Assembly: GCA_019058445.1 (NCBI GenBank) | Contig: JAHPZA010000007.1 | Span: 20,129-84,128 of the forward strand | DNA: 64,000 nt | Reading direction: 5' to 3' | Source: Promethearchaeota archaeon | Lineage (GTDB): Archaea > Asgardarchaeota > Lokiarchaeia > Sigyniarchaeales > SOKP01 | Part shown: piece after piece, positions 10,588-57,886 of the stretch | Layout: every line of letters begins with the position of its first letter | Numbering within the stretch: position 1 is the stretch's first letter | Made by a program: the position numbers and the translations under genes | The notes under the pieces: generated by a model | Databases searched by the model: none | Told to the model about the DNA's origin: nothing | What the model saw: only the letters and a program-made list of their open reading frames with translations

Positions 10588-11193
10588 ATGCCAGTAGATC
10601 CCGCAACTGCTGTTTATAATTTAATGCAAGCAGATCCTCATATTATTGCCGCAACGGTTATTTCAGGCTCAAATGAAATAATTTATACAACAGATAACTG
10701 GGATATAAGTGCGGATATAGGCAGAGTCATTTCAAGTTGGGTTGCTCAGAATGCTCAATTTATAATGGTCTCTGGAGTAAAGTATTCTATGCTACAATGT
10801 GAACCGGAAAGACTCGTTGCTACCTCTATCCGTGGTGAGGGAAGTATTGTAGCTGCAAAAGATGATGAGCATAAATTAATTGCTTATCTTGAACCGGATG
10901 GATATGCCCCTGGAGCTGCTATGGATGTACAGAGAACGATTACTTCAATGAGTTCTAGATCGCACTATATGGGAGATGATGCTCAATTAGGTAAAAGTAT
11001 GCCTGCTGCAGCTTCGGCATCTCCAAGCATAGATCCTCAATTAAAAGGGGAAATTGAAGCATTTTTAGAATGGATCAAAGATACTGATGGACTTTCGGGC
11101 TATATAAATTATTATTTGCAGCAAAATAATGCCCAAATAATATCTGAGCTCTCAAAAATTTATAGTGAGTTAAGGCAGATTTTTGGAGTTTAA
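10588..11193 (+). CDS. Asgard profilin with C-terminal helical extension
   Basis: IIYTTDNWDI, GVKYSMLQCEPERLVATSIRGEGSIV resemble the Loki profilin core; linker plus ~55-aa helical tail. Confidence 0.8.
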   Translation: MPVDPATAVYNLMQADPHIIAATVISGSNEIIYTTDNWDISADIGRVISSWVAQNAQFIMVSGVKYSMLQCEPERLVATSIRGEGSIVAAKDDEHKLIAYLEPDGYAPGAAMDVQRTITSMSSRSHYMGDDAQLGKSMPAAASASPSIDPQLKGEIEAFLEWIKDTDGLSGYINYYLQQNNAQIISELSKIYSELRQIFGV

Positions 11194-14192: not shown

Positions 14193-14352
14193 GCAGGGAT
14201 AACCAAGCCTGGTCAACGGTGCCGGACTCTATTGAGATTTATTCTCATAAGCTGGACTCAAGATCTTTAAAAATTAATTTCCGTTGATATACCAACTCTG
14301 ATGAGATATCCGGTCTCATAGGAGTACGTGGGTTCGAATCCCACTCCCTGCA
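14193..14352 (+). tRNA. tRNA-Leu(CAA), two introns (14228-14257 at 32/33; 14263-14307 at 37/38)
   Basis: GCAGGGA/TCCCTGC acceptor stem, long variable arm, GTTCGAAT; two BHB motifs give the mature arm CCGGA-CTCAAGA-TCCGG. Confidence 0.85.
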
Positions 14353-14358
14353 TCTAAT

Positions 14359-14476
14359 GCGGGAATTGCCAAGTCTGGTTAATGGTGTTTTCGAGCTTTT
14401 TCGAAAGCCGACTTGAGGCGCTGGACTTAGAATCCAGTCTTGTAGAAGTTCGGGGGTTCAAATCCCTCTTCCCGCA
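14359..14476 (+). tRNA. tRNA-Leu(TAG) with D-loop intron (~14383-14415)
   Basis: GCGGGAA/TTCCCGC acceptor, CTGGA-CTTAGAA-TCCAG; hairpin insert before the 3' D-strand. Confidence 0.9.
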
Positions 14477-14648: not shown

Positions 14649-14753
14649 GCTCTCGTAGTGTAGCTCGGCCAAAGTCTCCTTGATTCCAAAGGTGACAGCG
14701 AGGCATGCTAGGCTTTCACCCTGGTGACCCGGGTTCAAATCCCGGCGAGAGCA
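14649..14753 (+). tRNA. tRNA-Glu(TTC) with D-loop intron (~14673-14702)
   Basis: GCTCTCG/CGAGAGC acceptor, CTAGG-CTTTCAC-CCTGG, CCGGG-TTCAAAT-CCCGG. Confidence 0.9.
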
Positions 14754-14789
14754 TCCAACGCTTTATGCGTTTATGCATTGGAAAACCAA

Positions 14790-14956
14790 GCCTCCGTAGC
14801 TCAGTTAGGTAGAGCACTGAGTATTAATCATGCTCAGCCCGCCCAAAGCACCCGGCTTTCATAATTGATTACCAGTATGACCGGAAGTTAACCGGGCGGT
14901 CGCATGTTCGATCCATTAGTGATTCGAATTCCGATTCGCTGGATAAGCCGGGGGCG
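14790..14956 (+). tRNA. tRNA-Asn(GTT) with three introns (~14813-14846 D-arm; 14858-14886 at 33/34; 14917-14946 at 63/64)
   Basis: GCCTCCG/CGGGGGC-G acceptor; removing the inserts restores CCCGG-CTGTTAA-CCGGG and GCATG-TTCGATC-CATGC. Confidence 0.85.
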
Positions 14957-15128
14957 TACTTTATTCCCTATTGCTTTTTATTTTAAAAATTTGATCTTTC
15001 CTGCACGACCATCATTTTTTCTTTATATATTTTCAAAATATTCAACAATAAATTTTCTACTTAAAAATAGCATAATAACCATTTCAATCGTAAATTTAGA
15101 GATTAATTCGATATTAATAGGTGATTCA

Positions 15129-15467
15129 ATGGAAGGAGGAAAGAAAGGATATATAGTACTCTGGATATTCATGGGAATAATTTTATTTATAACTATACTT
15201 TATCCCATTTTTGGCATAAATTTAAAATATCAGATTGGAACTGCTATAAGCACAACGCTTATAAAATTAGGAAGCATTTTGATTATGGTAGGGACTATAA
15301 TCCTTATTTTAGGCTTTATTATGTTATTTATCTCTGGGACAGGTTCAGGAGCGTTAAAACCAATGTTAATCGGGTTCTTTTTAATAGTTCTGGGAGTAAT
15401 ACTTATTGATCCGATGGGTACAAGCTATTTCACTCAAGGCAGAGAGGCCCCGAAAGGATATCATTAA
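15129..15467 (+). CDS. small membrane protein with VirB2/CedA-like hairpin (true start ATG 15129)
   Basis: GGTGAT Shine-Dalgarno before MEGGKK; three hydrophobic segments; the longer ORF overlaps tRNA-Asn. Confidence 0.75.
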   Translation: MEGGKKGYIVLWIFMGIILFITILYPIFGINLKYQIGTAISTTLIKLGSILIMVGTIILILGFIMLFISGTGSGALKPMLIGFFLIVLGVILIDPMGTSYFTQGREAPKGYH

Positions 15468-57362: not shown

Positions 57363-57794
57363 GTGAGTACCATTCAAGAAAAAAAGAACGATGAAGCAAA
57401 AATAATGGCTGGGCTTCTAAGGGCTGGTCATACCATGCTAAATTTGGCTTGTCCCTTATGTAATAATCCTCTTTTTCGAAATAAGGAGAATGATATCTTT
57501 TGTCCAATATGTAATAAAAAAGTTATCATTAAAAAAGAAGATTCATTAGTTAATGAAGGAGAAAATTCAATTAAATCAGAAGATAGAGGTCAAAATTCAA
57601 AAAACATAGATAAACAACGATATTATAATCCTAATACGTTAATCAGAATCATTGAAAATAAAATAAATATGATAACTCAAAAATTAGAACATGAAACTCA
57701 AATGGATATAATTGAAAGATACATAAAGGTTTTGACAAAACTTTTTGATCTTTTAAAAAAATTAAATAATTGTAATGCTTCTGCCGGGATTTGA
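57363..57794 (+). CDS. UPF0148 / Sjogren autoantigen-1 family zinc-ribbon protein
   Basis: MA.LLRAGHTML..ACP.C..PLF...CP.C. Confidence 0.85.
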   Translation: MSTIQEKKNDEAKIMAGLLRAGHTMLNLACPLCNNPLFRNKENDIFCPICNKKVIIKKEDSLVNEGENSIKSEDRGQNSKNIDKQRYYNPNTLIRIIENKINMITQKLEHETQMDIIERYIKVLTKLFDLLKKLNNCNASAGI

Positions 57795-57886
57795 ACCCGG
57801 GTCGCGAGGGTGAGAGCCTCGCATGCGTGGTCCTTTACATCATCTTTAAAAAATTGAAAAGTTTGACCGAACTACACTACAGAAGC
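57776..57886 (-). tRNA. tRNA-Glu(CTC) with 36-nt D-loop intron (57827-57862)
   Basis: GCTTCTG/CAGAAGC acceptor, CGAGG-CTCTCAC-CCTCG; BHB with GGTC/GACC helix. Confidence 0.92.

What the first reader, a model, noticed from the sequence alone, without database searches (positions are those of the whole stretch)
14790..14956. tRNA-Asn with three introns, one inside the T-stem (63/64)
Seen: clean BHB motifs at 33/34 (CCGG/CCGG helix, CT|T and AA|G bulges, TCATA/TATGA) and 63/64 (ATCC/GGAT, AT|T and AA|G, AGTGA/TCGCT), plus a 34-nt D-arm insert with uncertain boundaries. Only removal of all three yields a cloverleaf. Known: multi-intron tRNAs are best known from Thermoproteales; I do not recall 63/64 as a common site. 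Unspliced, the anticodon reads as TTC, so standard tools would probably miss or mis-call the gene.
Basis: seen in the sequence. Interest (0 to 1): 0.7.

Follow-up and report, generated by a model that had tools for sequence, protein, structure and literature searches.

The report
Three-intron tRNA-Asn gene in Lokiarchaeon
This is a real asparagine tRNA gene of an Asgard (Loki-type) archaeon, broken by three short introns, one of them inside the T-stem; this kind of heavy interruption has recently been described in other Asgard archaea, so it is a good catch rather than a new kind of thing.

Summary
Confirmed. Window 14790-14956 (+) encodes tRNA-Asn(GTT) in four exons (23+11+30+10 nt) split by introns of 34, 29 and 30 nt at Sprinzl 22/23, 33/34 and 63/64. 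The spliced 74-nt product is 74/74 identical to an intron-free tRNA-Asn gene in another Asgard MAG, which scores 66.5 bits on Rfam tRNA. The unspliced gene is missed by ARAGORN and Rfam. The 33/34 and 63/64 introns sit in exact bulge-helix-bulge motifs (shuffle p about 2.5e-5 and 9e-5, near-MFE), and relatives show covariation in them. The D-arm intron has only a relaxed motif; I set its boundary from cleaner relatives. Among 54 distinct related tRNA-Asn genes, 21 carry a 63/64 intron, 28 carry 59/60, 21 carry 33/34, 19 carry 22/23, and 4 carry none, so 63/64 is a common site in this lineage. No other tRNA-Asn gene was found in the 4.6-Mb, 92.6%-complete genome. RtcB is present, and relatives carry alpha and beta EndA. 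The host is a Lokiarchaeon, not a member of Thermoproteales. Multi-intron Asgard tRNA genes were reported in 2024 and 2026, so this is a new member of a known kind. No RNA evidence of splicing could be obtained.

The parts
14790..14956 (+). tRNA-Asn(GTT) gene: four exons, three introns, discriminator G73 at 14956, no encoded CCA
   Evidence: the spliced product is identical to the intron-free gene in L081, which scores 66.5 bits on RF00005
14790..14812 (+). exon 1: acceptor 5' strand, D-stem 5' strand, D-loop with G18 G19, and G22
   Evidence: spliced alignment to intron-free orthologues
14813..14846 (+). intron 1 (34 nt) at 22/23. The same product results from any register up to 14817-14850. 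Relaxed BHB: central helix 14807-14810 with 14841-14844 (3/4), then an 8-bp hairpin 14817-14824/14830-14837 after a 2x2 internal loop
   Evidence: the register is taken from relatives with AGGT/GCCT at 4/4
14847..14857 (+). exon 2: A23 to U33 (rest of D-stem, A26, anticodon stem 5' strand, C32, U33)
14858..14886 (+). intron 2 (29 nt) at 33/34. BHB: central helix 14852-14855 with 14881-14884, bulges 14856-14858 and 14885-14887, inner helix 14859-14863 with 14876-14880
14887..14916 (+). exon 3: G34 U35 U36 anticodon through U63 (anticodon stem 3' strand, variable loop CGGTC, T-stem 5' strand, T-loop TTCGATC, and C61 A62 U63)
14917..14946 (+). intron 3 (30 nt) at 63/64, inside the 3' strand of the T-stem. 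BHB: central helix 14911-14914 (A58-C61) with 14941-14944, bulges 14915-14917 and 14945-14947, inner helix 14918-14922 with 14936-14940
   Evidence: 29/30 identical to the 63/64 intron in G007:C85
14947..14956 (+). exon 4: G64 C65, acceptor 3' strand, G73
14754..14789 (+). spacer between tRNA-Glu and tRNA-Asn, carrying TTTATG boxes at 14762-14767 and 14770-14775; a likely archaeal TATA-type promoter (inferred)
   Evidence: 78-86% conserved in three orthologous loci (alignment A1); the promoter function is an inference
14957..14985 (+). T-rich tract after the gene (T5 at 14975-14979), a possible oligo-T terminator (inferred)
   Evidence: inference only

Best explanation
This is the single functional tRNA-Asn(GUU) gene of a Lokiarchaeial (Asgard) genome. 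I infer the following pathway. The gene is transcribed as a precursor of about 167 nt from a TATA-like promoter in the conserved spacer upstream. The archaeal splicing endonuclease EndA cuts inside the 3-nt bulges of three local bulge-helix-bulge motifs. In this lineage EndA is the two-subunit alpha/beta type, which tolerates motifs lacking the outer helix. The cuts remove introns at 22/23 (34 nt), 33/34 (29 nt) and 63/64 (30 nt). RtcB joins the four exons, and CCA is added afterwards because none is encoded. What is shown here: the exon/intron structure, the motifs, their conservation and covariation, and the presence of RtcB. What is inferred: transcription, cleavage, ligation and their order.
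For: (1) The spliced product is a complete cloverleaf called Asn(gtt). It carries the GUU anticodon and G73.

(2) It is 74/74 identical to an intron-free gene in L081 and 73/74 identical to the one in L014. These are called tRNA-Asn by ARAGORN and score 66.5 and 66.3 bits on RF00005, against a cut-off of 29.

(3) Across 54 distinct related genes the exons are nearly invariant, while the insertions vary in presence, length and sequence, always at the same few sites.

(4) The BHB motifs at 33/34 and 63/64 are exact, rare under shuffling (5 and 18 of 200,000) and near-MFE.

(5) There is covariation. At 63/64, central pair 2 is seen as TA, CG, TG and GC, including an exon U59-to-G change matched by an intron change. 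Inner-helix pairs show 3-6 standard pair types and are paired in 11-16 of 16 genes. At 33/34, the inner pairs switch between TA/AT and CG/GC.

(6) No second tRNA-Asn gene and no copy of any of its exons exists elsewhere in the assembly.

(7) RtcB is present. An EndA homologue is present. All 24 relatives searched hold EndA, and most hold two paralogues; in the one checked (G006), the high-scoring paralogue has Tyr/His/Lys intact. Asgard EndA is reported as (alpha-beta)2 with the L1 loop that gives broad specificity (PMC5829648).

(8) The Leu-Glu-Asn gene order and the upstream spacer are conserved.
Against: - No RNA evidence was obtained. The only RNA library that holds part of the gene gave a contig of an unspliced relative.
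- The D-arm motif is weak in this gene: 3/4 central pairs, an interrupted inner helix, 6.7% of shuffles reach it, and it lies 8-10 kcal/mol above the MFE.
- None of the three motifs has a proper outer helix.
- In this assembly the only EndA homologue has Phe and Ser in place of the catalytic Tyr and His. It is therefore beta-like, and no alpha subunit was found. The assembly is 92.6% complete.
- Independent contigs of the best DNA run did not bridge 14754-14887, so physical linkage of introns 1-2 to intron 3 in this strain rests on the MAG assembly alone.
Confidence: 0.9

Rival explanations
1. The gene has two true BHB introns (33/34 and 63/64). The 34-nt D-arm insertion is either not removed by EndA at 22/23, is removed at other boundaries or by another route, or is retained as an extra hairpin between the D and anticodon arms.
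For: The 22/23 motif is not beyond chance in this gene and is energetically disfavoured. In the MFE the insertion forms its own 8-bp hairpin beside an intact D-stem. The 2026 census found canonical motifs at only 33% of missed D-arm insertions (10.64898/2026.10.13.758758).
Against: Intron-free orthologues lack any such arm. The insertion varies from 21 to 34 nt in relatives but always ends with GCCN-AA|A. Central pairs 2-4 are kept in 17 of 17 distinct genes, and the helix starts exactly two nucleotides after the predicted cut.
Confidence: 0.12
2. It is a decaying pseudogene: a former tRNA-Asn gene disrupted by insertions and no longer used.
For: Standard finders do not call it. No expression data exist.
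Against: - It is the only tRNA-Asn candidate in the assembly.
- The exons carry no mutation relative to an intron-free orthologue.
- The insertions sit in splice motifs that covary.
- The same architecture (22/23 + 33/34 + 63/64) recurs in four other genomes of the genus.
- The neighbouring tRNA genes are interrupted in the same way.
Confidence: 0.03
3. The three-intron combination in this contig is an assembly chimera of two co-occurring strains, joined within exon 3: one strain carrying 22/23 + 33/34 plus some T-arm intron, the other carrying 37/38 + 63/64.
For: The 5' part is 97% identical to G007:C210, and the 3' part is 98% identical to G007:C85, a different allele type. The independent contigs of the best-holding DNA run stop at 14753 and restart at 14888.
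Against: The stretch shared by the two allele types is only about 20-26 nt, shorter than usual assembly k-mers. The contigs on both sides have similar depth, 25 and 28. The same three-site architecture is assembled independently in G001, G005, G006 and G008. A gap in those contigs proves nothing, as the tool itself states.
Confidence: 0.1
4. The region is the start of the protein-coding ORF 14904-15467 (+), and the tRNA likeness is a coincidence.
For: An ATG-initiated ORF of 187 aa overlaps the last 53 nt.
Against: The ORF has no Pfam match. Its ATG lies inside the T-stem. The tRNA signal is far beyond chance. The tRNA is conserved across dozens of genomes, while the downstream flank is not.
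Confidence: 0.01

Closest known systems
[quoted passage not shown] 2024, PMC11291895; Goswami et al. 2026, bioRxiv 10.64898/2026.10.13.758758)
   Same: Several short (about 20-35 nt) non-canonical introns per gene. D-arm insertions are missed by standard tools and have weak motifs, while T-arm insertions have strong BHB motifs. Gain and loss between close relatives are frequent. In Atabeyarchaeia the tRNA-Asn also has two introns and lies next to tRNA-Glu.
   Different: Those reports centre on Atabeyarchaeia and Jordiarchaeia/Freyarchaeia; the main text of the 2026 preprint does not mention Lokiarchaeia. This gene comes from a Lokiarchaeial genus that includes MAG AMARA_1S. I could not check whether this exact gene or the 63/64 site is listed in their supplementary tables.
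Multi-intron tRNA genes of Thermoproteales (Sugahara 2007/2008, Fujishima 2010; reviewed in PMC4090602 and PMC4033280)
   Same: Up to three BHB introns per gene at non-canonical sites, including 22/23 and 59/60. The motifs are relaxed, and cleavage is by an (alpha-beta)2 EndA with the L1/CSL loop.
   Different: The phylum and GC content differ (31% GC, mesophilic sediment MAG). 33/34 and 63/64 are not among the sites listed in the review I could read. I found no sign that intron sequences were copied between different tRNA genes of this genome.
Canonical archaeal 37/38 tRNA intron with hBHBh' motif
   Same: The geometry of two 3-nt bulges four base pairs apart, with the cut after the second bulge nucleotide, is the same. 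Some orthologues of this very gene carry a 37/38 intron instead of 33/34.
   Different: None of the three introns here is at 37/38, and none has the outer helix. For a 37/38 intron the anticodon stem supplies that helix.

Membership tests
tRNA (Rfam RF00005), isotype Asn | Cloverleaf that scores above the family threshold | tested here: met
   Met for the spliced product: an identical sequence in L081 scores 66.5 bits against a cut-off of 29, and ARAGORN calls it Asn. The unspliced gene does not reach any threshold.
tRNA (Rfam RF00005), isotype Asn | Anticodon GUU and discriminator G73 (Asn identity elements; the role of G73 is from my own knowledge) | tested here: met
   G34 U35 U36 at 14887-14889 and G73 at 14956.
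Archaeal BHB (EndA-dependent) tRNA intron | [quoted passage not shown] | tested here: met
   Exact at 33/34 and 63/64. At 22/23 only 3 of 4 central pairs form, and the motif is not significant on its own.
Archaeal BHB (EndA-dependent) tRNA intron | Flanking helices h (exon side) and h' (intron side) of the strict hBHBh' form | tested here: not met
   h' is present (5 bp at 33/34 and at 63/64). The outer helix h is 0-1 bp at all three sites. These are therefore relaxed HBh' motifs, as is known for non-canonical introns.
Archaeal BHB (EndA-dependent) tRNA intron | Structure maintained by compensatory change in relatives | tested here: met
   Several standard pair types occur at central and inner positions across 16-18 distinct genes per site. 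The caveat is that related sequences are not independent.
Archaeal BHB (EndA-dependent) tRNA intron | Host encodes a splicing endonuclease able to cut relaxed motifs, and an RtcB ligase | tested here: inconclusive
   RtcB is present. In G000 only a beta-like EndA is found, with F and S at the catalytic Tyr and His positions. Most relatives have two EndA paralogues; the high-scoring one checked (G006) is an intact alpha. The alpha gene is probably in the unassembled 7%.
Archaeal BHB (EndA-dependent) tRNA intron | Introns are actually excised from the RNA | not testable with these tools
   The runs are held only as contigs, and the one RNA library gave an unspliced relative.
Split or permuted tRNA genes | Exons at separate loci or in permuted order | tested here: not met
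   All four exons are collinear within 167 nt.

The most novel reading that the evidence does not exclude
The intron set of this gene is a mosaic. Introns 1 and 2 are near-identical to one allele type in a congeneric MAG (G007:C210), and intron 3 is 29/30 identical to another allele type (G007:C85). The surrounding spacer and the neighbouring tRNA-Glu intron are only 63-86% identical to the orthologous loci. If this is real, BHB introns are being shuffled between co-occurring Lokiarchaeial populations by homologous recombination or gene conversion across the invariant exons. That would be a concrete route of intron spread, and the 2026 census left the question of how introns arrive open.
Probability: 0.25. 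Interest if true: 0.5.

Novelty: new member of a known kind. Interest (0 to 1): 0.35.

Why it matters
The finding shows that heavy, multi-site interruption of tRNA genes extends to a Lokiarchaeial genus, beyond the Atabeyarchaeia and Jordiarchaeia where it has mainly been described. It includes a recurrent intron inside the T-stem.

In practice, the only tRNA-Asn gene of this genome is invisible to ARAGORN and Rfam. Annotation and tRNA-complement-based completeness estimates for such MAGs will therefore be wrong unless homology-aware or BHB-aware tools are used.

The series of orthologous tRNA-Asn genes with 0 to 4 introns at five sites, over invariant exons, is a compact natural dataset. It could be used to study intron gain, loss and exchange, and to test the substrate range of Asgard EndA.

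Tried and rejected
- Sequencing runs. All four runs are held as contigs. The RNA library X20 gave one contig that matches 14880-14916 and then continues into a different 63/64 insertion. This is an unspliced relative and says nothing about splicing here. DNA run X5 gave a joint 14817-to-14887 bridged by CCGGCT, which is a relative's DNA lacking introns 1 and 2. X1 contigs do not cover 14754-14887, which proves nothing.
- Other registers for the D-arm intron. Registers 23/24 to 26/27, and one using the 8-bp hairpin as h', give either 0/4 central pairs or the wrong product.
- Copies of the three introns elsewhere in the genome. There are none, so I saw no sign of intron transposition between tRNA genes.
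- Genome-wide scan for introns in the T-stem 3' strand of other tRNAs. Only this gene stood out; a first, unfiltered version of the scan returned only AT-rich noise.
- Second tRNA-Asn. The two GC-rich GTT hairpins from the scan for uninterrupted GTT anticodon arms lie in protein-coding sequence.
- Literature on the 63/64 site. The search tools cannot handle '63/64', and Marck & Grosjean 2003 and Sugahara 2007 are not held. I cannot say whether 63/64 was recorded in Thermoproteales.
- Not done: a full tRNA census of the genome. tRNAscan-SE and SPLITS are not available.

Full report
**What is there**

Window 14790-14956 (+) reads as a tRNA gene broken into four pieces. Exon 1 is 14790-14812, exon 2 is 14847-14857, exon 3 is 14887-14916 and exon 4 is 14947-14956. 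Joined, they give 74 nt, which ARAGORN calls tRNA-Asn(gtt) and RNAfold folds into a cloverleaf.

- The arms are a 7-bp acceptor stem with one U-G pair, a 4-bp D-stem, a D-loop with G18 G19, a 5-bp anticodon stem, a 5-bp T-stem and the T-loop TTCGATC.
- The anticodon loop reads C U G U U A A, the variable loop is CGGTC, and the discriminator is G73.
- No CCA is encoded.
- The unspliced gene is not found by ARAGORN with or without its intron mode, nor by Rfam at the gathering or E-value thresholds.

**Comparative proof**

The genome is a 4.6-Mb, 31% GC, 10-contig MAG that is 92.6% complete.

- A BLAST of the 167 nt against 40 relatives, plus an exact-pattern scan of one genome per GTDB species with the 5' exon, gave 54 distinct tRNA-Asn genes from Asgard MAGs.
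- The gene in L081 has no intron and is 74/74 identical to the predicted product. The genes in L014/L086 and L044 (73/74 each) and in L015/L039 (70/74, with compensatory acceptor-stem changes) are also intron-free.
- The L081 gene scores 66.5 bits on RF00005 against a cut-off of 29.
- In all 54 genes the exons are almost invariant. The insertions differ in presence, length and sequence but fall at a handful of sites: 59/60 in 28 genes, 33/34 in 21, 63/64 in 21, 22/23 in 19, 37/38 in 4, and a few at 57/58, 58/59 and 61/62. Genes carry from none to four.
- The site labels printed are one too low; one search prints them correctly.
- The combination 22/23 + 33/34 + 63/64 occurs in five distinct sequences from five genomes of the same genus.

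**The splice motifs**

I scored each boundary with the standard geometry: a 4-bp central helix made of exon and intron, a 3-nt bulge 3' of each strand of that helix, and the cut after the second bulge nucleotide.

- At 33/34 and 63/64 the motif is exact. The central helices are CCGG/CCGG and ATCC/GGAT, the bulges are CT|T with AA|G and AT|T with AA|G, and the inner helices have 5 bp.
- With boundaries fixed by homology, 5 and 18 of 200,000 intron shuffles do as well. Only 15-21 of about 64,000 arbitrary placements in the window do as well.
- Forcing these motifs costs 2.4 and 0.7 kcal/mol relative to the precursor MFE of -62.6 kcal/mol, z = -4.2.
- Relatives show covariation. At 63/64, central pair 2 occurs as TA, CG, TG and GC, including an exon U59-to-G change matched by an intron change. 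The inner helix switches among AT, TA, CG and GC while staying paired in 11-16 of 16 genes. At 33/34, the inner pairs switch in the same way.
- None of the three motifs has an outer helix, so they are the relaxed HBh' form.

**The D-arm intron**

The 34-nt insert can be placed anywhere from 22/23 to 26/27 without changing the product.

- Only 22/23 (14813-14846) gives a BHB-like motif: A17a-U20 pairs with GCCC at 3 of 4 positions, and the bulges are AG|A and AA|A.
- In this gene the motif is weak. 6.7% of shuffles reach it, and it lies 10 kcal/mol above the MFE, or 7.8 kcal/mol after the other two introns are removed.
- The register is supported by 17 distinct relatives. In these, central pairs 2-4 are always kept, seven genes have the full AGGT/GCCT helix, and the inner helix begins exactly two nucleotides after the cut.
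- I take 22/23 as the best call and keep a rival in which this insert is handled differently.

**Is it the working gene?**

- No other tRNA-Asn was found. None is among the 19 Rfam or 23 ARAGORN hits.
- There is no second BLAST copy of any exon.
- There is no uninterrupted GTT anticodon arm with a T-arm nearby; the two GC-rich candidates lie in coding sequence.
- The gene sits in a conserved Leu(CAA)-Leu(TAG)-Glu(TTC)-Asn cluster. In L015 ARAGORN calls Leu(TAG), Glu and Asn in this order directly.
- The 36-nt spacer upstream, with TTTATG boxes about 28 and 20 nt before the gene, is 78-86% conserved in three orthologous loci. I read it as the promoter, which is an inference.

**Machinery**

- RtcB is present.
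- The only EndA homologue in this assembly (G000:C9:770313-770918) has both Pfam domains. It carries Phe and Ser where M. jannaschii EndA has the catalytic Tyr and His. The numbering Tyr115/His125/Lys156 is from my own knowledge.
- That makes it a structural, beta-like subunit. Neither a relaxed Pfam search nor tblastn with a congeneric alpha finds an alpha gene.
- All 24 relatives hold EndA, and most hold two paralogues, one scoring about 105 bits and one about 70 bits. The high-scoring paralogue of G006 has Tyr, His and Lys.
- Asgard EndA has been described as (alpha-beta)2 with the L1 loop linked to broad specificity (PMC5829648).
- I infer that the alpha gene lies in the unassembled part of this genome.

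**Who is the host?**

- Relatives with the same exon are deposited mostly as Promethearchaeota, the NCBI name of the Loki phylum within the Asgard kingdom.
- The loci of G006 and G004, which are of the same genus, match those of MAGs AMARA_1S and TEKIR_6S. AMARA_1S is placed in Lokiarchaeia lineage loki1 together with Lokiarchaeum GC14_75 (PMC7392546).
- Some same-genus MAGs carry the submitter labels Thor-, Hod- or Hermodarchaeota, so those labels are unreliable.
- A weak profilin match at 10588-11190 fits an Asgard origin.

**Comparison with what is known**

- Three-intron tRNAs were first described in Thermoproteales (PMC4033280, PMC8450103).
- In 2024, 92-95% of tRNA genes of Atabeyarchaeia and Freyarchaeia were reported to carry introns, often several and non-canonical (PMC11291895).
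- A 2026 preprint counts 2.2 intervening sequences per gene, and up to five, in those families. It finds that D-arm insertions are missed and have weak motifs, and that T-arm insertions are frequent and have strong motifs (10.64898/2026.10.13.758758).
- The present gene fits that picture in every respect, so it is a new member of a known kind. What it adds is the lineage (Lokiarchaeia) and the recurrent T-stem site 63/64.
- Within this genome, a scan found no other tRNA with an intron in the T-stem 3' strand.

**The mosaic**

- Orthologous loci of the same genus carry different intron sets.
- This gene shares introns 1 and 2 with G007:C210 (97% identity over positions 1-122). It shares intron 3 with G007:C85 (29/30 identical), whose 5' half instead carries a 37/38 intron.
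- The spacer and the tRNA-Glu insertion are only 63-86% identical to the orthologous loci.
- This suggests exchange between allele types across the invariant exons. Differential loss or an assembly chimera cannot be excluded, because independent contigs of the best DNA run do not bridge 14754-14887.

**Limits**

I have no evidence at the RNA level. tRNAscan-SE and SPLITS could not be run. The published record of site 63/64 could not be checked.

Noticed in passing
window 14193-14352, 14359-14476, 14650-14753 (+): Three more interrupted tRNA genes lie directly upstream. A class II Leu(CAA)-like gene has at least two insertions. Leu(TAG) has a 33-nt D-loop insertion relative to the compact orthologue in L015. 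Glu(TTC) has a D-loop insertion of about 30 nt that is absent from the orthologue in G007:C210. ARAGORN's intron mode mis-calls them as Trp, Lys and Val.
   Followed up: partly
G000 whole genome: Only 19 Rfam and 23 ARAGORN tRNA hits were found in a 4.6-Mb, 92.6%-complete genome. Several have impossible calls (SeC, Pyl, Stop, Phe-aaa), and most are longer than 90 nt. A large part of the tRNA set is probably hidden by multiple introns.
   Followed up: no
G000:C9:770313-770918 (L095:1219-1827): The only EndA homologue in the assembly has Phe and Ser at the positions of the catalytic Tyr and His, so it is beta-like. The catalytic alpha paralogue seen in most relatives (for example L101:1168-1773) is missing from this assembly.
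   Followed up: yes
L003, L004, L005, L051, L057 (relatives), site 63/64: These relatives have 60-nt insertions at 63/64 whose outer boundaries form no BHB (0/4 central pairs). The first half looks like the usual 30-nt intron, so these may be two adjacent or nested introns.
   Followed up: no
window 14917-14946 and the 63/64 introns of 15 relatives: The 63/64 introns are 29-30 nt long and share a hairpin loop GAWWTCC (ours is GAATTCC), while the stem covaries. Several also contain a TTCGA-type string that resembles the T-loop. The origin or role of this conserved loop is unknown.
   Followed up: partly
window 10588-11190 (+): A 201-aa ORF has a weak profilin match (E 2.7e-4, 21.5 bits, below the Pfam cut-off of 25), as expected for an Asgard eukaryotic-signature protein.
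   Followed up: no
window 57776-57886 (-): This is the only tRNA in the window that Rfam finds (53.2 bits, 111 nt). ARAGORN's intron mode calls it Glu(ttc) with an insertion. It may be a second tRNA-Glu or a mis-called interrupted gene.
   Followed up: no
L017/L073 (G020:C199): Two tRNA-Asn copies lie in inverted orientation about 500 nt apart. One is complete, with a 59/60 intron; the other loses its 3' end after the T-loop.
   Followed up: no
window 14904-15467 (+): A 187-aa ORF with no Pfam match starts inside the T-stem of the tRNA gene. It is probably spurious, at least at its 5' end, and gene callers may annotate it over the tRNA.
   Followed up: partly
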